Assembly (NCBI RefSeq): GCF_009914755.1
Contig: NC_060941.1
Length of the DNA stretch: 64,000 nt
Strand: one strand, 5' to 3'
Origin: the human T2T-CHM13v2.0 reference genome, Homo sapiens
The notes under the pieces were generated by a model. It was not told the origin of the DNA. It saw only the letters and a list, made by a program, of their open reading frames with translations, and ran no database searches. Every line of letters begins with the position of its first letter. The stretch's first letter is position 1. Below, in pieces: positions 20,464 to 40,789 of this stretch. The translations under genes were made by a program, and so were the position numbers.

Positions 20464-20860
20464 TGAACGCTTTACGTTTGAGATGTGGGATATTAAACTA
20501 ATTACAATCATTAGCAAATATTGATTACTTATATCCTGTCTATAATGACAGTTTTATTTTCCCTTAAGTCATAGAAGTATCAATAAGAGGATACAACCAT
20601 CTTCCATATTCCTCTACCTTTTAAATTTAGCTTCTCCAAGAATATACTATTTTATAACATCTATCTAGGAAGCCTAAGTATAATTAACCCATTACCTAAT
20701 GCATTCGTGTGTGTAAAGGAAGCTCTCTTTGGCCTTAGCAGCAGTGGAATGGGAAGAAGCTGGGGCCAGGTGTGCTACTGACTCTCCATTCTCATTTCCT
20801 TCTGATTCTGCCGTAGTAGCTCTTGATTTTTCTTGTTTACAATTGTTGAGCTTTGGACAT

Positions 20861-20972
20861 CTCTTCTTCCTCTTCCTCTTTCTCTTCCTCTTCCTCCTCC
20901 TCCTCCTCCTCTTCCTCCTCCTCCCCCTCCCCCTCCTCCTCCTCCTGCTCCTCCTCTTCTTCTTCTTCTTTT
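20861..20972. repeat. (CTT/CCT)n polypyrimidine microsatellite derived from an Alu tail
   Basis: ctcttcttcctcttcc..cctcctcct..cttcttcttctttt directly abutting an antisense Alu. Confidence 0.95.
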
Positions 20973-22073: not shown

Positions 22074-22283
22074 GGAAGAAGGAGAAGGAGAAAGAGGAGG
22101 AGGAGGAGGAGGAGGAGGAGAAGGAAGAAGAAGAAGAAGAAGAGGAGGGGGAGGGGAAGGGGGAGGAGAAGGAAGAATAAGAAGAAGAAGAAGAGGAGGA
22201 GAAGGAGGAGGAGAGGGGAGGGGGAGGGGGGAGGAGGAGGAAGAAGAAGAAGAAGAAGAAGAAGAAGAGGAGAAGAAGAAGAG
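22074..22283. repeat. (GGA/GAA)n polypurine tract, ~210 bp
   Basis: Almost pure purine run of GGA, GAA and GGGGA units. Confidence 0.97.
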
Positions 22284-30522: not shown

Positions 30523-30930
<408 letters not shown>

Positions 30931-31859
30931 TTATACTATAGTTAAAGGTGGACCACAAAAAATGGTTCTGAGATTCCTAGCAGGCAGACCAAAAAGGAAA
31001 ATCGATCAGATTCATAGTGTCTATCAGATAAAAGCAAGCATGTCAAAAGGCAGTTTTATTACAGCTCAATTGTTTCACCATCCAAACACTTTCTGAACTC
31101 ACAGACACTTTACCTAAACCTCTTTTCTGCATGCATCTATCTTTAACTTATGTTTAGGCATCTTGATCCACTACAAAACCATGTGAACCATAAAGACAGA
31201 GGCCTCAGCATATTAATTTTTTATAACACTGTGCTTCACACAAGACAGGATTTCCATTAAATGTTTGCACAATAAATTAATCAATGACATTTTAAGATGT
31301 GTGTCAAAAGAAAGAAACCTGTTTGGGTGAACTTCACACTTTCAAAACACACTGGCTGGGAAGACAGGCTGACAAATTGTGTTGAGAAAAATGAAGGTTA
31401 TAAGTGGATTTGTGTGTATATGGGAAGAATTATTATGGCAATTTATTATCATTTTCACATAAGGGAAATAGAATGGAGGGGTTGAAGAAGATAGCTTGAA
31501 AAGAAGGGAGAAACTATTGAATACAGATTCTTCATTACAAATTTTTATCAAAATCTAAATCTCAGTAGAATAACAATCTGAAGTCACTGGGCAAATGGTC
31601 TTCATTCACTTTAAAATTAATGATTATATTATTTTTAAGTTACAAGTTTCCCATTAATTTAGGTGCCTTTAAGTGTATTCCAACAATTTATAATGCTCGC
31701 TAACGCATTTTATTGTATCCAAAGTTTAGAAGTATCTAGACAAATCACTGTATTTGTTATATGGTAATCGGTATTATCTTGGTCTTTAATTCCAGAATTC
31801 TATGTAACACTTATCTAAGTGGGGGTTACATTGGGTATTTCATGCGATTTCCTTTTTAT

Positions 31860-32200
31860 TTGTATATTTATTCAGCAAGCACTTACTATTGTTCACAATG
31901 TGTCAGCACTGTGGGTGAGAAAGAAACATGGTACCATTAATCAAGGAACTTACAGTCAAGGGGGAGGAATAATTACAGCAGAGGAGTGCATATTTGTACC
32001 CAGCAAGGAATGGTGCAGAGTCCTCTAGGAGATGGAGATCATAAAAGAAAAAGAGCTAACTTCTTGGATTGATCTAGGGAAACATGGTGGAGGAGGTGGC
32101 ATTAGATCTAGTCGTAAATAATATGTAAACTTGGGATTCCTATTAAAGGGCACATGTGGAAGTAGGGGGGTGCAAAATTGTTGGATGGAATTTAGGCTGA
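31860..32200 (-). mobile_element. L2 3' fragment
   Basis: tttattcagcaagcacttact..tgtgtcagcactgtg..tcaaggaacttacagtcaagggg. Confidence 0.55.
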
Positions 32201-32414
32201 AGCATCTTAACCTCAAACCAAAGAGCAACGGAAACAGTTGTATAAGGGGAGAGGAAGGGAAGAGAAGAGAGTGTTAAAATCTTGATGAAAGGGATAGCAA
32301 AATTGGAGTAAGATATGACGCGAATTATCGATGGAGGTGTACAGGAAAGAATGCACCACATTTCAATTTCTTTCAATACATCCGGCAGAACAATGCCAAC
32401 TAGAAGTCGAAGCA

Positions 32415-32618
32415 CATTGTCCAGAATAGGCAAATGTACAGAGAGAGAAGGTAGAGTAGGGATAGCCAGAAGCTGGAGCGAGGGGGAACTAGGGAGTGAC
32501 TGCTCATGGATATGTTTTTTTTCTTGAGGTGATTAAAAATGTTCTGAAATTAGGTTGTAATGATGGTTGTGTGGCTTTTGCAAGTGTTTAAAAAGTCATA
32601 TATTCTCCACTTTAAAAA
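32415..32618 (+). mobile_element. L1MB-type 3'UTR fragment
   Basis: tgtccagaataggcaaat..agagagagaaggtaga..gggagtgactgctcatgg..aaatgttctgaaattag..cactttaaaa. Confidence 0.75.
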
Positions 32619-33314
32619 CAGTTCCCACTTAACCTTTTCATATGTGTTTAGATACAGCTTGTTCATTGGTTGTCCTTATTTATGCTCTGTTTTGATTTAG
32701 TATTGGCCCATGTTTTATGCTTTATGTCCTCCTCAGATTAGCAATCTTGTTTTGTATCACAGTTTTGATGGTGGCCTTGCTCCAGGATACTACTTCAGGT
32801 CTTGTTGCTATTATTTCTACTATGGATAACAAGAGCCCCATCCTAGCAGATAGGACACTGCCCTCCTGAAACTATTCTCCACCTGGCTCCAAGCCTGAGG
32901 GGGCAGGGGAATTATGCAGATACATTCAATCAGAGTCATGAAAATCAATTAGGCAGCATTTTAGACGGGTTATAAATTGCTAAGGCTTAACTTAGAATGG
33001 GGTAGGATTGAGAATGAAAAAGAAAGGAAAGAGATCTTGTGCAAGAATGGGCAGGGTGTTGTTTCAGATTACACCTGGAATAGAGTCAGAGTAACCAAAG
33101 ATAAATCACATTTTAATTCCCAAGTGACACAACTTTTTGTCACAGTTCCTTGGAATTTCTACTGGAGGGTTATATATTATGATATAACACTTTACACAGT
33201 GCTTGGTATACAGTAAATCTAGGTAATGGTTTTGGCAAGGATTTTATGTTTATGTTTTGTTTTTACTTCTTCCCAGGAGACTCCTGCTTTCAAGTCAGTT
33301 CATTAATCATTATC

Positions 33315-33460
33315 ATTCTCATCTACAGGAGGTAGGAATTAGTATCCTCATTTTGTAAATGAGACTACTGAAGATGAATGAGATTAAATGATTTGCCCAA
33401 GGCCTCCATGTTGGACTGTGATTTTGTAAAAAGGCAGAGCAAATTCTGTTAGTTCTACAT
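33315..33460 (-). mobile_element. MIR
   Basis: gaggtaggaattagtatcctcattttgtaaatgagactactgaag..aaatgatttgcccaagg. Confidence 0.7.
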
Positions 33461-34261
33461 AGGAGACGGGAGATCACAGCAGGTTGATAGAATCTAGAAG
33501 GGGCAAAATGGAGATGAGAACTTAGAAGTAGAAATGGAAACAATGAAGATGTCAAGAAAGGCAAAGTCAAGACAGGTGAGAGCAAGACCCAGCTTTGGGG
33601 ATTTGGATTGGCAGGGCCAACCCTGCAAACCAGCTCAGCCAGAAGAGGGGCAAGGCACCTTCATTATGGGTCAATGCTTTGGAGTTTGAAGGGGGAAAGT
33701 GGAGAGTCCCTGGGAACCTAAGCAACCCAGGAAGAAGAGGGTCAACGATAGCAGATCTCATGGAAAAAGTATTTATGGAAGTATGTTTTTTACCTACTGC
33801 CATTGTGAATTGTCTGACAGTTTCACCATGAGGTACAGAGAAGCAGGAAGGCTACTCAGAATCAATCTCATTTCTAGGGTGAAGACTCTTGTATGTCCTG
33901 ATGGGATGACTTTCATAGAAGAACAGCCTGCAGATAATAATGGGTTACAATAAACTTACTGCTCCTGAAAGAACCAGCAACTAGTTTGTCCTAAAACCAA
34001 TCTTCCCTTCTGATAAGTCCCAATGCCATGTAACCATTGGATACTTATCATTTGTTATATAATGAGTTACGTTTTCATATATTTATGCTAACTCTCTAAC
34101 TTGACTATATATTCTACCAAGATAGAAGTAAATATTCCTTCCTCATTTTCCTATGGATATAAATTTATACATTGTACCTATTTAATCAAATATTTGACTG
34201 GTTGGATGCCTGCATCAAATGCAGACATGACTCCCGCCAAAATGGGCTTTGTAGGAGCCTA

Positions 34262-34690
34262 TGTGGCAAAGATTAGGGTTCCTGGGAAGCCGAATCTGAG
34301 ATGAAATTAAGAGCTCGTTATGTTAATTAAGGTGCATCCTTGGATTCAACACCTCTCGAGTTAGGGGAAGGAAGCAGACAGGGCAGAGAAAGAAGTTGAG
34401 CTTCCACGGAGACCCATCACAGCTTCAGTGAATCTCATAGAGATTTCTAGAGCTAGAATGACCCTTCAGCATTTTCTCAGGTTGATTTGCAATGAACAGG
34501 CCCTTACACTCCCTCCTTGATCAGTTTTTGGATGTGGGCTCCCTGCAAAGGGATGTGTCCTTGGGCAAGGCTGCTCTGTGTAACAGAGGCAATCCTTGGA
34601 AGGGCAGCCAGCTTATGGCCATCTGCCAACAGCTGAAGAGCAACAAGTTCTTCAGTGAAGGAAGGCCTGGCCAGTGCAGCACTGGGCTCA
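34262..34690 (-). mobile_element. ERVL-type LTR (LTR33/LTR16-like)
   Basis: gggttcctgggaagccgaatctgagatg..ttggattcaacacct..ggggaaggaagcag..gggcagagaaagaagttgagct..gacccttcag. Confidence 0.65.
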
Positions 34691-35147
34691 TTTATATTAG
34701 GTAACTCCAGGTAAATGTAAGTGCATTTCTTAGAGGTGGGATGAGGTACTTTGAAGTACCTCACTGAGTTTAAAGGCAAAGGTATTGATACCCACAGTTA
34801 TATTCATTATTTCTGGTTGAGTTCAATTACACTGAATTTGAGATGGCAGTTTGAAAATTTACTGTCAGTAACTACCAAAAAAAAAAAAAAAAAAGAAAGA
34901 GCAGAGCATTGTCTTCGCGATTATGCTGGGACACTTTCAGAGTAAGTCCCCAAGATACAAGGTCCAAAAAAAATACTGATGTGGTACTCAATTGTGGTTC
35001 TTTGTAGTCTCTTTCTAAGAGAACTTCAGCTGCATGTTGGATGGAAAACAATATGAAACAAGGGAGAGAGAGAAGAAACAGAGTTTGTTAATATTCTCTG
35101 CTAGATTCTGCAGAGGAATCACTTTATTTTGCAGTTGCAACTAGCTT

Positions 35148-35177
35148 AAGTTATGTAGCTAGAAGTTATGTAGCTAG
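35148..35177. repeat. 15-bp perfect tandem duplication (aagttatgtagctag x2)
   Basis: Read directly from the sequence. Confidence 0.95.
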
Positions 35178-35231
35178 AAAGCTGACTTGCACACTTAAAG
35201 CTAATGAAGAGAAATGCAGGTTTTCCGGGGT

Positions 35232-36029
35232 AGGTTCTTGGCACTTCTCTGCAAATAGGTAAAAGGGAATGGCAGATATTCAAGCTTAGGGAGCAAGCAG
35301 CAAGGACAGAGCCTTCCCCCTCTCTGTGTGTTGAAGTCAGCAGATAGCACACCTGCTGCTGCGTGAGTTCCTTCTGCCAAGCAGAGCAGCACAGCTGCAA
35401 GACACCCTGCTTCTGGCTCTGAGCTTTGCTTGTCTTCAGGGATGGAGCCCCTCCCAAGGCAAGTTCAACTGGGTTCTTTGGCAGCCGAAGTCTACACGGA
35501 CCCTGCAGGGAGCGGTGGAGAAAAGTGAGTTTGACATGCTTGGAAATATTTAGATCTTGGATGTAAACTTCAAGGAAAATATTTACTCTGTTTGTTTTAA
35601 TACCACAGAGGTTTGGATCCCGGGAATCTTAGGTTCTTGGCACTTCTCTGCAAATAGGTAAAAGGGAATGGCAGATATTCAAGCTTAGGGAGCAAGCAGC
35701 AAGGACAGAGCCTTCCCCCTCTCTGTGTGTTGAAGTCAGCAGATAGCACACCTGCTGCTGCGTGAGTTCCTTCTGCCAAGCAGAGCAGCACAGCTGCAAG
35801 ACACCCTGCTTCTGGCTCTGAGCTTTGCTTGTCTTCAGGGATGGAGCCCCTCCCAAGGCAAGTTCAACTGGGTTCTTTGGCAGCCGAAGTCTACACGGAC
35901 CCTGCAGGGAGCGGTGGAGAAAAGTGAGTTTGACATGCTTGGAAATATTTAGATCTTGGATGTAAACTTCAAGGAAAATATTTACTCTGTTTGTTTTAAT
36001 ACCACAGAGGTTTGGATCCCGGGAATCTT
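35232..36029. repeat. Perfect 399-bp tandem duplication of unique sequence (35232-35630, 35631-36029)
   Basis: I found no mismatch between the copies; junction gggaatctt|aggttcttgg; 1-bp (T) microhomology; the same peptides appear twice in the ORF track. Confidence 0.97.
35440..35524 (+). other. Candidate 85-nt exon (second copy at 35839-35923)
   Basis: Acceptor ctttgcttgtcttcag|G, donor AAA|gtgagt; higher GC/CpG than flanks; ATG in gggATGg context. Confidence 0.4.
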
Positions 36030-37705
36030 CAGAGTACAAAAGGCTCTTGCCAAGGCACCAATTTAACAATTTGGTCAGTGACAAAAGGGCATCCTGTTTA
36101 ACTAGTCTGAATTTAAATAGCATGTTTCCAATGTATTAGCATGTCTGTCTCATCTGTTTACAGAACTGTTTTCTTTAACCCCTGAATTTTGTGTTTGGTT
36201 TATGAATTTGCACAGAATCAAATACAGTTTTTTAATAGAAAGCAAGCAAAAAAGCGGATCATCACATAGTTGAAAGAGTTGCTACCCGGGCATTGACAAT
36301 AAACTTCCCACGATTACTTGACCATTCAGAGCAACCAGATCCTTGTAGAAGGCTACAAGCTCTCTTTACTCATGGCTCTTGGTGAAAAATTCCTTACTGT
36401 CTCTTTGCTGGTGCTGAGAAATACTGCAGAATGCTAAAGGACTGTCCAATTATATTTTTGGCGAGTGAATTATGATAAAAGAGAAGCCTTTTGTAAATGT
36501 GACTTGAAAAGTGGCGTATTTTGTGTCCTCTCTTTGTGTTTTATGCAGAATCCCTACTGCAGGACACAACTTTCAGGACTCACACTGATTTCCCTTTAGT
36601 TTTCTGTTTTTGTTAGTCTGCAGCAGAGTGGGAAATAGTTACTGTAAAGGGAAGTCTTAAGAAAACATATCAGTTATGTGCACAATATGTGTACATATAT
36701 GGAGGAAAAATAGACAAAAAAAGGAAACTGGCATCACAATGCTCTCTCTAAGGGCCTATAAGGGATGAACTGGGACTCCTTCCTGCCTTCGGATAGCACA
36801 TCAGGCAGAGAAAATGTTAACCATTTTTCAACTCTCAGAAAAGCAGATTTCATGATGTCATACAATGTCCTATTCCACTGTCAGATTGCTTCCCCACTTT
36901 GGCAATTAAAAATAATTACACTTTTTTTTTTTTTTTTTTTTGCTGTACTGCCAAGCCAATTTCTCCTATACAATTGTTTTTAGACATGGCGAATGAACAG
37001 CTGCTTTTCAATTATTGGACACAGTTGTATTTCAATTCTCTTTTAACAGCTGTGAAACAGAATTCCTATTCAGAATTTTATAACAGTAAACCACACAAAA
37101 AGACTACTGTTGTCTCTCTGCTAATGGAGATTTTGTGTCCCACTTCTTTTTCAGTACCATTTCCCAGATGCTGTCTATTATCTTTCCTCCATCTTTGCTT
37201 GACTGTTACTACCATGTGTATGATTCCAACCAAGTCTGATGTCTGCTGATTAAACTTTCTTTACAATACCTTGGTCATTTTTTCCCTCCATCAGAAGAGA
37301 AAGTTATCCCACTTCTCCTAACCAGTTGACAATTAAGTGAAGAAAGAATTTTAATACCTAAATGGTCATTCTGTCACTACCCACTATTGTCACATTTCTT
37401 CTTAGTTGGATATCAGTCATAAGAACAATTAGAGTGGGAAAAAGTCAAACATGTAAAAATTTATATTTGCTAATAAACTAATTTGCGTGGGAGCCATTAG
37501 AGAAATATAGACTCATCTGCTTTACAGCAGCTTAGAACAGACAGAGATCTACCAGGCCAGTTAGTATAACTCTAATGCCTTTCATCTTGGAGAAAGGAAA
37601 ACAAGCTAGAGTGGTTAAGTAATTTTTGTTTTCAGATAAATCATCTGTGTTGTAGCTTAGATATCCTAGAGCTCAATTCCCCAGTTTTAGTAGCTTCCTT
37701 ATTCT

Positions 37706-38027
37706 GTTTTTTGGTGTGTTTTTTTTGGACGGAGTCTCGCTCTTGTTGCCCAGGCTGGAGTGCAATGGCTCATCTCAGCTCACTGCAACCTCTGCCTCCT
37801 GGGTTGAAGGTTCAGGTGATTCTCCTGCCTCACCCTCCTGAGTAGCCGGGATTACAGGCAAGTGCCACCACTCCTAGCTAATTTTTTTTTTTTTTTTTTT
37901 TTTTTTTAGTAGAGACGGGGTTTCTCCATGTTGGTCAGGCTCGTCTCAAACTCCCAACCTCAGGTGATCCACCCGCCTCGGCCTCCAGAAGTGCTGGGAT
38001 TACAAGCGTGAGCCACTGCGCCCAGCC
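37706..38027 (-). mobile_element. AluSp/Sq-like with long central T tract
   Basis: gagtctcgctcttgttgcccaggctggagtgcaatgg..tttctccatgttggtcaggct..cctcaggtgatccacccgcc; imperfect TSD cttccttattct/cttccttactct. Confidence 0.95.
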
Positions 38028-38384
38028 ATCTTCCTTACTCTTTAACAAATGGTAATCTAAAATCAGAGAAAGCATGGTTCTGAAACATTGGAAGGTAAAG
38101 TAAGAGAACTATATGTTGCCATTTAGCTGTAATAATAATTCTCCTAGTCTCTAGGCCAGACTGAATTTCCATCTGGTAGAGATTTATGCATTAACTGTAA
38201 TACTTGATTTCCCCTTGAAGTTCAAATCTCTTTGGGAGGTATTAATTTTATCTTATTTAGGCATTTATACAGAGTATGAACTAACAATCTGAGAGTATGT
38301 TTTGATAGGCTGAAAGGAGGAGATGCATGAGGGATTTATACAATGCCATTTAATTTAAACTTATAAATGTAATGTTAATGGCTG

Positions 38385-38898
38385 TGTATTAGTTTTCTAT
38401 TGCTGCTGTAGCAAATTACCACAAACTTAGAGGCTTAAATAATACAAATTTATTATCTTCTTGCTCTTAGGTTAGATGTCTGAAGTGTTTTTCATTGGAC
38501 CAAAATCAAGGCGTTGGCTGGGCTACCTTCCCTTCTGGAGACTCTAAGGAAGAATCCATTTCCTTGTCTTTTCCAGATCCTAGAGGCTACCTGCATTCCT
38601 TGGCTTTTATCCCCAATCTTCCATCTTCGGAGCCAGCAACAGTGAGTTGAGTCCTGATATGGCATCACTGTGATCTCCTCTGCTGCTCCTTCTTCCATTT
38701 TTAAGGGCCGTGTAATTACATCGAGCCTACGTGGATAACCCAGGATAACCCCTCTCTTCTAATATCAGCTGTCAAGCAACCTAAATTCCATTACAACCTT
38801 AATTTCCCCCATTCAGCCATATAACTTAATATATTCACAAGTTCCAAAGATAAGGAAGTGGACATCTTTGAGGGTGTGTCATCATTCTGCTTAACACG
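38385..38898 (-). mobile_element. MLT1D/C solo LTR
   Basis: tgtattagttttctattgctgctgtagcaaattaccacaaacttag..ctggagactctaaggaagaatccatttccttg..ggacatctttgaggg. Confidence 0.88.
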
Positions 38899-38899
38899 G

Positions 38900-40789
38900 A
38901 GTGTAAGAGAAAAGCTACAAATATCAATGACTTAACTAAATAATAAGTTTATCTCTTATTAACATTGGGAGTTTCTGGTAGAGCAATCCTCTAAGTGACT
39001 ATTCAGGGACTTAGGCTCCTTTCATCTTCTGCATCTGCCTTCCTACTGAGCTTGAAAGCCTTCCCTGTCCGGTTAATACATGAAGAAACAGAGAGAGGCT
39101 TTTGTGTGTGTGGTTTTATGCACCAGGCTTGGAGGCAGTGAAAATTATTTCTACCTATATTTTCATTGACAATACTCAGTTATGTGGCTATACCTAAGTA
39201 CAGTGGAAGTTAGGAAATATAGTCTATCTATGTGCTTGGGACATGAAGAAAATACATTTGATGAAGAGCTAGTCAGTCTGTGCCAATTCTGTCCATTTGT
39301 TCACCAAACATCTATTCCATTTTTCCTGCCACACATGGAACACACGGGTGTCCTTTCTGAAGGTGGAAAACTAAAGGTCCCAACAAGTCATTGCAGAAAA
39401 CTTAAAGTCCAGCATCCTTGAGTGATGCTCATCTCTCTAGACCAGAATTGAAGTGGCTTCTTTGAGCCTACAAATGATATATATTTATACACACACACAC
39501 ACACACACACACATGCACACAAACACACACATGCATACATATACCATGCAGGGAAGATACATAGATACGGGAAAACATTTTAGACACCTGTTTGGTAAAG
39601 GAAAAAATGAGAGGCATGCAGCTGTTACTGAACCATAGCAATTTTGAAATCATGTTAGGCACATATTAAGGGTCCTATTATTTGGCTGGGAAAAAATCTT
39701 TCGTTTATTCCTAAATTATGCTCCCTAGAATCTCCTTTCTTCACTGTTCTCCATGGTTACTGATTCCAGCCTCTGAGAGATTCTTCTTTGTCTATCTTTC
39801 CCATGACCTTCAGGAAGTGGGATTGGAGATTATGTTTGGTGCTGATAAAAGTTGGGGGACCCAGCACTAATCTTAAAGCTTAAGAAGTCAATACTTTCAG
39901 TCCATGCTCATAGAATCCTTAGGGAAACAATTTTCCCCAAACTAACAGAAATTGAAATTGTCTTGTTTCTAGTCAATTACATGTGCCAATAACTACATTT
40001 GAAGTTTTCTCAATGTGATAATTCTCATGACTGATTTATTTTTTGCTTCCTCATATACACCATTCTAAGCCACTCCCAACCTCCCTGAAGCTATCTGAAA
40101 TAATATTTTTGAATACTGTTTCCTTAGTCTAATCCTTATATTAAATTGTCTGTTTTTTAACAATAATTTTATTTGATTGTTGTCATTCAGAGCCTTTTTC
40201 AATTTATCTTAATTAGGATGCAGAAGCACTCAGGTTTATTAACTCTAAAAGTTATTGATCTCTGGATACATATCCATTTCAATTTGTGCTTCAAAATAAG
40301 TCTGTTTTTGTCTGTGCTCATCTCTTTCTTGTAATACATTGCTAAGAAAGGCCAATAGTAGCAAATAGGCACTGTTACTCTCATATCAATCTCTTGTCCT
40401 CACGTCCAAAAACTACAGGCTTATAGGCTCATGAGGTGTGTTGTGCCTTTCTATTTAATGTATGAAGTGGTTTTACCATATGTTTTGCCATGAAACAACA
40501 TGACCTGAACCTTCATTGTTCCAACCTCATCTATCAGCCTCCATGAGGCCATCTGAAATAATATTTGTGAATACTTATTTCCTTAATCTGATCTCTATCC
40601 TAAGGCTGCGTTATAGGTTCTGGGATCCTTCCCTTTTCAGGGACAAATGGAAAAAAACAACAAGGATCACTTGTGGGATATTGTGATAAAATGGGCCTGA
40701 AATTGATTAACATCTTTTCTGCCCACATTCTGTTGGTCACAATTAAGTCATATGGCCATATTTAATTGCAAAGTGTGATAGAAAATGTA

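What the first reader, a model, noticed from the sequence alone, without database searches (positions are those of the whole stretch)
35232..36029. Perfect 399-bp tandem duplication of a unique regulatory/exon-like module
Seen: two identical copies head-to-tail in non-repeat DNA, while the surrounding repeats are all diverged. Breakpoints share only 1 bp (T), with CCGGG just upstream of both ends. The unit is GC/CpG-richer than its flanks and holds E-boxes (CACCTG 35350, CAGCTG 35392), forkhead-like sites (GCAAATA 35251, TATTTAC 35580, TGTTTGT 35589) and a splice-bounded 85-nt segment. Inference: a very recent, possibly polymorphic structural variant that doubles a promoter/enhancer and exon. 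An assembly or construction artefact is equally possible.
Basis: partly seen in the sequence, partly recalled or inferred. Interest (0 to 1): 0.85.

Follow-up and report, generated by a model that had tools for sequence, protein, structure and literature searches.

The report
Tandem-duplicated first exon of LINC01497
The reference genome carries two identical back-to-back 399-base copies of the start site and first exon of the non-coding RNA gene LINC01497, an ordinary kind of structural change that is probably harmless.

Summary
Window 35231-36029 holds two head-to-tail copies of a 399-bp unit, 399 of 399 bases identical, sharing one base (T) at the breakpoints. The unit occurs nowhere else in CHM13 and is not masked as a repeat.

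The unit is 163 bp of upstream DNA, the whole 131-nt exon 1 of LINC01497, its GTGAGT donor and 105 bp of intron 1. RefSeq annotates only the copy-2 exon (35793-35923). An identical exon lies at 35394-35524.

No homology beyond chance and no hairpins flank the breakpoints. This points to a one-step, non-homologous duplication (end joining or replication template switch), not NAHR.

Zero differences in 399 bp only bounds the age at about 7-9 My (95%). "Very recent" and "polymorphic" are therefore possible but not shown. No other human or ape genome, and no reads, could be consulted.

An assembly artefact is unlikely on published T2T validation. The transcription-factor motifs are at chance level.

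Only in the duplicated allele does its acceptor-like site gain an upstream donor, which gives a testable new-exon prediction.

This is an ordinary structural variant of low interest, with an annotation and read-mapping caveat.

The parts
35231..35629 (+). Copy 1 of the 399-bp unit. It keeps the native upstream context.
   Evidence: identical to copy 2 at 399 of 399 bases; the unit matches only these two places in CHM13.
35630..36028 (+). Copy 2 of the 399-bp unit. It keeps the native downstream context.
35622..35640 (+). Duplication junction: the end of copy 1 joined to the start of copy 2, with no inserted bases. The shared T (35630, equal to 36029) is the only microhomology. This 19-mer is diagnostic of the duplicated allele.
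   Evidence: limits of identity; once in the window; once in the genome, 1 forward, 0 reverse
35231..35393 (+). 163 bp upstream of the copy-1 start site (promoter-proximal DNA). Repeated at 35630-35792.
   Evidence: Derived from the annotation (exon 1 starts at 35793) and the period of 399. No TATA-like run near -30 on reading. No CpG island.
35394..35524 (+). Unannotated exact twin of LINC01497 exon 1 (131 nt), followed by the same GTGAGT donor at 35525.
   Evidence: the two exon copies are identical; donor 8.92 bits, 66th percentile of held-out real donors
35793..35923 (+). Annotated exon 1 of LINC01497 (NR_110874.1, NR_110875.1), with its donor at 35924.
   Evidence: RefSeq annotation given with the finding
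35839..35923 (+). The acceptor-like AG before 35839 gains an upstream donor (35524|35525, a 314-nt intron) only in the duplicated allele. It is a candidate cassette exon.
   Evidence: acceptor 8.52 bits, 36th percentile of real acceptors, top 1.1% of AGs in the window; the true exon-2 acceptor scores 8.17; no full yUnAy branch motif, only CTGAG with its A 17 nt upstream.

Best explanation
This is a genuine, simple tandem duplication in the CHM13 genome. It was made in one step, without homology, from single-copy DNA. The ancestral arrangement was left flank, unit, right flank. A break or a stalled replication fork near the end of the unit was rejoined or re-primed at the start of the unit on the sister or template strand, using at most one matching base. 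The plausible routes are classical or alternative end joining, or a replication template switch of the FoSTeS/MMBIR type.

The copied segment is the core of LINC01497's 5' end: 163 bp upstream of the start site, the whole 131-nt first exon, its splice donor and 105 bp of intron 1. The allele therefore has two identical start-site-plus-exon modules 399 bp apart.

A transcript started in either module can splice from its own donor to exon 2 and give the same mature RNA. The most likely outcome is therefore little or no change in RNA product (inferred), with at most a change in dose.

The duplication was most likely inherited through the germline. It is younger than a few million years. Whether it is polymorphic or fixed in humans cannot be told from this sequence.

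Shown: the structure, its uniqueness, the junction, the overlap with exon 1 and the strength of the splice sites. Inferred: the mechanism of origin, germline origin and functional neutrality.
For: - Structure: two copies, 399 of 399 bases identical, no spacer, 1-bp microhomology.
- Uniqueness: the unit matches only these two places in the 3.1-Gb genome. No masked repeat lies between 30800 and 37703.
- No homology to drive NAHR: local alignments of the breakpoint neighbourhoods were equalled or beaten by 550 of 2000, 147 of 2000 and 904 of 2000 shuffles. No other direct repeat of 30 nt or more lies in 34000-37500.
- No hairpins: DNA folds of four stretches (left breakpoint, right breakpoint, duplication junction, nearby 15-bp tandem) gave z-scores from -0.67 to +0.72.
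- Exon 1 and its donor sit inside the unit (annotation).
- The class is common. In 1,019 long-read genomes 17,029 (19.5%) of insertions are duplications and 15,295 (89.8%) of those are tandem. Microhomology of 1-15 bp is read there as end joining or MMBIR (PMC12350158, passages). [quoted passage not shown]
- Assembly quality: three SV-sized errors were corrected genome-wide and 44-47 heterozygous SVs were curated (bioRxiv 10.1101/2021.07.02.450803, passages).
- Older tandem duplications exist as a class. In the 264 kb I could scan, 7 arrays have a period of 50 or more. The other 6 are 77-97% matched and only this one is 100%.
Against: - I saw no reads and no second human or ape genome. Reality in CHM13 DNA, germline origin and the single-copy ancestor rest on literature priors and on the structure itself.
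- The same T2T preprint says two small CHM13 regions look like tandem duplications that arose in the cell line, so that origin is not excluded.
- Neutrality is assumed, not tested. Two start sites in tandem could interfere with each other or add up. A decent acceptor inside copy 2 could change the RNA.
- A second perfect tandem duplication (15 bp x 2.1) lies 52 bp from the left breakpoint. Only 3 small perfect two-copy tandems with a period of 11 or more exist in the 64 kb. This may mean local instability or a more complex event than 'one step'.
Confidence: 0.75

Rival explanations
1. The duplication is functional. The second module adds a working start site. Transcripts begun in copy 1 splice from the copy-1 donor (35524|35525) into the acceptor-like site inside copy 2 (before 35839). 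This includes a new 85-nt cassette exon and changes LINC01497 dose or isoforms in carriers.
For: - Acceptor before 35839: 8.52 bits on a matrix built from 438 AG acceptors, half of them held out. That is the 36th percentile of 219 held-out real sites and the top 1.1% of 4484 AGs in the window. It is slightly above the true exon-2 acceptor (8.17).
- Donor: 8.92 bits, 66th percentile.
- The acceptor has an upstream donor only in the duplicated allele (sequence logic).
- Copy 1, not the annotated copy 2, keeps the native upstream DNA beyond 163 bp, so it may be the main start site (inference).
- The hypothetical RNA has a 121-codon ORF from the first ATG, against 31 codons in the annotated RNA.
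Against: - No full yUnAy branch motif lies within 50 nt upstream. There is only CTGAG, with its A 17 nt from the AG.
- RefSeq lists only two curated transcripts and no predicted model with such an exon.
- No regulatory element is annotated in the window.
- The ORF is weak evidence: the window has 20 mechanical ORFs of 110 aa or more.
- No RNA data could be consulted.
- LINC01497 has no mechanistic study among the 17 papers that name it (listing).
Confidence: 0.15
2. The duplication arose in the CHM13 cell line, in culture or at immortalisation. It is not an inherited human allele.
For: [quoted passage not shown] Perfect identity fits a very young event.
Against: Such events are few: tens genome-wide. 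Individuals carry a median of 22,636 SVs (bioRxiv 10.1101/848366, abstract in the listing). I could not see the preprint's list of heterozygous sites, because supplements are closed.
Confidence: 0.07
3. It is a false duplication made by assembly or polishing. The real CHM13 DNA has one copy.
For: Perfect identity is what a false duplication would also show. I could not inspect reads.
Against: A 798-bp structure in unique DNA lies well inside single HiFi or ONT reads (recalled read lengths). Self-alignment SV calling with at least two technologies found only three SV-sized errors, all fixed, and rare or false duplications were screened by k-mer copy number. That screen averaged copy number over 1-kb windows, so it may not resolve 399 bp. 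No cloning step exists in this assembly (recalled). The BamHI-like and SmaI-like sites near the unit's end are within the chance expectation for palindromic hexamers (my arithmetic, not a call).
Confidence: 0.03
4. It is an old duplication, shared with apes or fixed early in the human lineage, whose copies are kept identical by gene conversion or unequal exchange.
For: Identity of 399 of 399 does not exclude millions of years: P(no difference) is 0.12-0.13 at 6 My. Two perfect 399-bp copies are a substrate for homologous exchange; NAHR needs more than 100 bp of perfect homology (PMC10904011, passage).
Against: The other 6 of 7 arrays with a period of 50 or more in the 264 kb scanned have drifted to 77-97%. 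No direct evidence for conversion exists.
Confidence: 0.1

Closest known systems
Simple germline tandem duplications found as insertion or deletion SVs in long-read human population studies (PMC12350158; PMC10904011)
   Same: Head-to-tail copy placed next to its template in unique DNA, with little or no breakpoint homology. Its size sits in the usual SV range.
   Different: Its population status is unknown here. This one happens to sit in the reference itself and to cover a gene's start site and first exon.
Minisatellite or VNTR loci
   Same: Tandem arrangement. The two perfect 399-bp copies could now change in number by unequal exchange (inference).
   Different: Only 2.0 copies, no divergence and no evidence of variable copy number. 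The origin is not slippage within an existing array.
Tandem exon duplication as a source of alternative splicing (PMC9741552, abstract seen in the listing)
   Same: An exon is duplicated in tandem together with a splice site, so new splice choices become possible.
   Different: Those events are internal coding exons and, per that abstract, mostly ancient and highly expressed. This one is a young duplication of a non-coding first exon with its promoter. Only part of the exon could be reused, through an internal acceptor.
False or cell-line-born duplications in reference assemblies (bioRxiv 10.1101/2021.07.02.450803)
   Same: Perfect tandem copies in a reference assembly.
   Different: The published cases are few and were screened. 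Nothing in the sequence marks this one as such. It cannot be tested without reads.

Membership tests
Simple non-homologous tandem duplication (structural variant) | Two adjacent head-to-tail copies with no spacer | tested here: met
   period 399, 2.0 copies, 399 of 399 bases identical, no inserted base at the junction
Simple non-homologous tandem duplication (structural variant) | The template is otherwise single-copy DNA | tested here: met
   2 matches in the whole genome, both at this locus; not masked as a repeat.
Simple non-homologous tandem duplication (structural variant) | Junction with zero to a few bases of microhomology and no long flanking homology | tested here: met
   1 bp; breakpoint alignments equalled or beaten by 550, 147 and 904 of 2000 shuffles.
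Simple non-homologous tandem duplication (structural variant) | A single-copy allele exists in other humans or in outgroups | not testable with these tools
NAHR-mediated duplication | Direct repeats of about 100 bp or more at both ends of the duplicated segment (threshold from PMC10904011) | tested here: not met
   no such repeats flank the unit. The nearest Alu-like pieces lie about 1.7 kb or more away (37704-38032) and about 4.4 kb upstream.
VNTR / minisatellite | An array of several units whose number varies among individuals | tested here: inconclusive
   Only 2.0 copies. Variation among individuals is not testable here.
Segmental duplication | Length of at least 1 kb with at least 90% identity (recalled definition) | tested here: not met
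   The unit is 399 bp.
Dispersed repeat or LTR-derived promoter | Many related copies across the genome; masked by repeat annotation | tested here: not met
   only the two local copies at E <= 0.001; unmasked; no Rfam match inside the unit; the matches with E below 0.01 in 34000-39000 are Alu-related, at 37747-38026
Tandem exon duplication | An exon duplicated with functional splice signals | tested here: met
   the identical 131-nt exon and its GTGAGT donor (8.92 bits) are present in both copies
Tandem exon duplication | Both copies are used in transcripts | not testable with these tools
   No RNA data. RefSeq has only two curated transcripts, both placed on copy 2.
CpG-island promoter | High CpG observed/expected ratio (about 0.6 or more, recalled criterion) | tested here: not met
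   CpG observed/expected 0.21, 5 CpG, GC 48.9%
Assembly false duplication | The junction is not supported by raw reads | not testable with these tools
   Reads are closed. The literature prior is low.

The most novel reading that the evidence does not exclude
The duplication is a segregating human allele that does more than copy DNA. It places a splice donor upstream of an acceptor-like site that is silent in the single-copy allele. This creates a new 85-nt internal exon and a second start site for LINC01497, and the resulting RNA has a 121-codon ORF. One paper says LINC01497 is enriched in fetal cervical perichondrial cells and is linked to stature and bone mineralisation (PMC11579336, passage). 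Such an allele could therefore tag or contribute to those association signals. It would be a caught-in-the-act example of exon birth by promoter and first-exon duplication.
Probability: 0.07. Interest if true: 0.5.

Novelty: new member of a known kind. Interest (0 to 1): 0.2.

Why it matters
There are three practical points.

1. **Annotation.** LINC01497 exon 1 could equally be placed at 35394-35524. That copy, not the annotated one, keeps the native upstream DNA.

2. **Read mapping.** On T2T-CHM13, short reads from the LINC01497 promoter and exon 1 map equally to two places. Only reads crossing the unit's ends or the junction are unique. Pipelines that filter for unique mapping will therefore under-count RNA-seq, CAGE and chromatin signal exactly at this start site (inference).

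3. **Population genetics.** If the site is polymorphic, it is a clean natural experiment on doubling a lncRNA promoter and first exon, with a specific predicted new splice junction. It lies near reported height and bone-density associations.

None of this is surprising to a specialist. Tandem duplications are one of the commonest SV classes.

Tried and rejected
- **Dispersed repeat or LTR origin.** Rejected: 2 of 2 genome matches are local and the stretch is unmasked.
- **NAHR.** Rejected: no flanking homology.
- **Hairpin-driven or palindrome-driven breakage.** Not supported. Four DNA folds gave z-scores of -0.55, +0.72, +0.40 and -0.67. The 9 inverted-repeat pairs found are 10-15 nt and 80-100% complementary. 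The 100% pair is the same 10-nt palindrome in both copies, and none sits at a breakpoint.
- **CCGGG as a breakpoint signal.** Chance level.
- **Transcription-factor motif enrichment.** Not beyond chance: 7.7% and 9.5% of tiles do as well.
- **Structured RNA.** Rfam at E <= 1 over 34000-39000 gave 4 matches. None lies in the unit. Three are Alu-related, at 37747-38028, and one is a weak sRNA match at 34562-34659.
- **Hidden coding exon.** A mechanical 164-aa ORF on the minus strand spans copy 2. The unit is open in that frame and the junction itself makes the stop. But 5 of the 20 ORFs of 110 aa or more in the window are at least that long. Pfam gave only a 10.8-bit match at E = 0.51 against a cut-off of 27, and nothing for the 46-aa plus-strand ORF.
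- **A second, older tandem duplication at 40077/40535.** Only 85 aligned columns at 78% identity, so it was not pursued.
- **Background rate of perfect tandem duplications from 400 kb of flanking chromosome.** Not obtained (see below). I used the 264 kb already held, which is too little for a rate.
- **Literature on this locus.** A full-text search for LINC01497 found 17 papers. From the listing and three sets of passages, these are expression signatures and lists; none concerns a structural variant. Searches were for context only. Supplementary tables were closed and may list this site. These include the SV call sets of PMC12350158 and the heterozygous-SV list of the T2T preprint.
- **Mutation rates.** The values 1.25e-8 per base per generation and about 1.2e-7 at CpG sites are recalled, not from a call.

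Full report
**1. The observation.**
- The sequence, Tandem Repeats Finder (35231-36029, period 399, 2.0 copies, 100% matches, no indels, score 1598) and an exact comparison agree. Copy 1 is 35231-35629 and copy 2 is 35630-36028.
- The period-399 identity ends exactly at 35231 and 36029. The two breakpoints therefore share one base, T, and nothing is inserted at the junction.
- It is the only tandem array with a period above 29 in the 64-kb window.
- In the 264 kb I could scan (the window plus 20 gene-dense 10-kb pieces of chr17), 7 arrays have a period of 50 or more. The other 6 are 77-97% matched. This is the only perfect one.

**2. What the unit is.**
- A search of the whole CHM13 genome with the unit found two places, both here.
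- The stretch 30800-37703 carries no masked repeat of 100 bases or more.
- Rfam finds nothing in the unit.
- The mechanical ORFs over the unit are unremarkable and have no Pfam family.
- The RefSeq annotation supplied with the finding places exon 1 of LINC01497 (NR_110874.1 and NR_110875.1, curated) at 35793-35923, wholly inside copy 2.
- The unit is therefore 163 bp upstream of the start site, the 131-nt exon 1, the donor AAA|GTGAGT and 105 bp of intron 1. Copy 1 holds an identical exon at 35394-35524 with the same donor.
- The aligner's choice of copy 2 is arbitrary. Copy 1 is the copy that keeps the native DNA further upstream, and copy 2 keeps the native downstream intron.
- The unit is GC-richer than its surroundings: 48.9%, reached by 3.0% of tiles. 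It is not a CpG island: observed/expected 0.21.
- RefSeq lists no enhancer, silencer, promoter or CAGE feature anywhere in the window.
- The gene lies in the desert between MAP2K6 (about 375 kb upstream) and KCNJ16 (about 85 kb downstream).

**3.
- All five motif positions are right. However, 7.7% of other 399-bp tiles of the window have at least as many E-boxes of this class, and 9.5% have at least as many forkhead cores. The motifs say nothing either way.
- CCGGG does lie near both breakpoints. Local alignments of the breakpoint neighbourhoods are no better than shuffles, which matched or beat them in 550 of 2000, 147 of 2000 and 904 of 2000 trials.
- To test the 85-nt 'splice-bounded' segment, I built splice-site matrices. 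They came from the 422 GT donors (of 427 donor sites) and 438 AG acceptors of MANE-select transcripts in 20 fetched 10-kb loci. Half were held out for the score distributions.
- The donor after 35923 scores 8.92 bits, the 66th percentile of 211 held-out real donors.
- The AG before 35839 scores 8.52 bits. That is the 36th percentile of 219 held-out real acceptors and the top 1.1% of 4484 AGs in the window. It is slightly above the true exon-2 acceptor (8.17).
- The segment is therefore real as a pattern. It is the 3' part of exon 1, not a separate exon.

**4. How the duplication arose (inferred).**
- The evidence is unique DNA, a 1-bp microhomology, no inserted bases, no flanking repeats and no unusual DNA secondary structure at either breakpoint or at the junction (z from -0.67 to +0.72).
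- This is the signature of a homology-independent event. It fits end joining after breakage, or a replication template switch back by 399 bases.
- The literature reads such junctions the same way. [quoted passage not shown] These routes cannot be told apart from one junction.
- NAHR is excluded as the origin. It becomes possible now that two perfect 399-bp copies exist, so reversion to one copy or growth to three is expected at some rate (inference; threshold).
- A perfect 15-bp x 2.1 tandem lies 52 bp upstream of the left breakpoint. Only 3 small perfect two-copy tandems with a period of 11 or more occur in the 64 kb. The proximity is mildly surprising and unexplained.

**5. Age and population status.**
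- With recalled human mutation rates, the chance of no difference between the copies is 0.97 at 0.1 My, 0.84 at 0.5 My, 0.70-0.71 at 1 My and 0.12-0.13 at 6 My. The 95% bound is 7.4-8.7 My.
- Perfect identity over only 399 bases does not show a 'very recent' event. It does not decide between a segregating allele and one fixed in humans. I put these at roughly even odds (judgement).
- No other human assembly, no ape genome, no reads and no variant table could be consulted. Supplements that may list the site were closed.

**6. Artefact or cell-line event?**
- The T2T validation preprint (passages) reports SV calling from self-aligned reads of at least two technologies. It found three SV-sized assembly errors genome-wide, all corrected.
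- It curated 44-47 heterozygous SVs and ran a k-mer copy-number screen for rare or false duplications. That screen averaged over 1-kb windows.
- It also notes two small regions that look like tandem duplications born in the cell line.
- Individuals carry a median of 22,636 SVs (10.1101/848366, abstract in the listing). In 1,019 genomes 19.5% of insertions are duplications, 89.8% of them tandem.
- On these priors I put an inherited germline allele far ahead of a cell-line event (about 0.07) and of an assembly artefact (about 0.03). None of this was tested directly.

**7. Consequences (inferred).**
- Either module can start a transcript and splice from its own donor to exon 2 (38471), giving the same mature RNA. 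The default expectation is no change in product.
- Two departures are possible. The first is a change in dose, or interference between tandem start sites.
- The second is a new isoform. In a copy-1 transcript the donor at 35524|35525 lies 314 nt upstream of the acceptor-like site in copy 2. The 85-nt segment 35839-35923 could then be included as a cassette exon. In the single-copy allele this site has no upstream donor.
- For the new isoform: the site scores.
- Against it: no full yUnAy branch motif, only CTGAG with its A 17 nt upstream. There is also no RefSeq or predicted transcript with such an exon, and no RNA data here.
- The hypothetical RNA would open a 121-codon ORF, against 31 codons in the annotated RNA. 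I treat this as chance-level.

**8. What is known of the gene.**
- Seventeen papers in the library name LINC01497 (listing).
- Those I opened give it as a member of expression signatures or tables: PMC9109328 and PMC6321575 (passages).
- None mentions a structural variant at its promoter.

**9. Verdict.**
- This is a real, simple, homology-independent tandem duplication of the LINC01497 start site and first exon. It is a new instance of a very common kind of structural change.
- Its practical value is an annotation and read-mapping caveat on T2T-CHM13 and one specific, cheap prediction about splicing.
- Interest is low (0.2).

Noticed in passing
window 35148-35179: A second perfect tandem duplication (AAGTTATGTAGCTAG x 2.1, 100%) lies 52 bp upstream of the left breakpoint of the 399-bp duplication. 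Only 3 small perfect two-copy tandems with a period of 11 or more occur in the 64 kb. It could mark local replication instability or be coincidence.
   Followed up: partly
window 35629-36123, minus strand: A mechanical 164-aa ORF spans all of copy 2. The unit (399 = 133 x 3) is open in this frame, and the stop codon is created by the duplication junction itself. It is not exceptional in length (5 of 20 ORFs of 110 aa or more are as long) and has no Pfam family.
   Followed up: yes
window 35394-35524: An exact twin of LINC01497 exon 1 with the same donor is not annotated. RefSeq places exon 1 only on copy 2, although copy 1 keeps the native upstream DNA.
   Followed up: yes
window 56411 and 55353: Two annotated LINC01497 acceptors score very low on the chr17-derived matrix. 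The exon-4 acceptor scores -0.27 bits (0th percentile of real sites). The alternative exon-3 acceptor scores 3.67 bits (4th percentile).
   Followed up: no
window 20860-20970 and 22077-22282: Long polypyrimidine (TCC/TCTTCC) and polypurine (AGG/AGAAGG/GAA) microsatellite tracts lie about 13-14 kb upstream of the duplication.
   Followed up: no
window 37704-38032: An Alu element (a below-threshold SRP-RNA match at 37910-38026 on the minus strand, 60.8 bits, plus a masked stretch) lies in intron 1, about 440 bp upstream of exon 2. Weak miRNA-family matches inside it fall below the gathering scores.
   Followed up: no
window 40063-40144 and 40519-40603: A short direct repeat with a spacing of about 456-458 bases, 78% identical over 85 aligned columns. 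It is too short and too diverged to call an old tandem duplication.
   Followed up: partly
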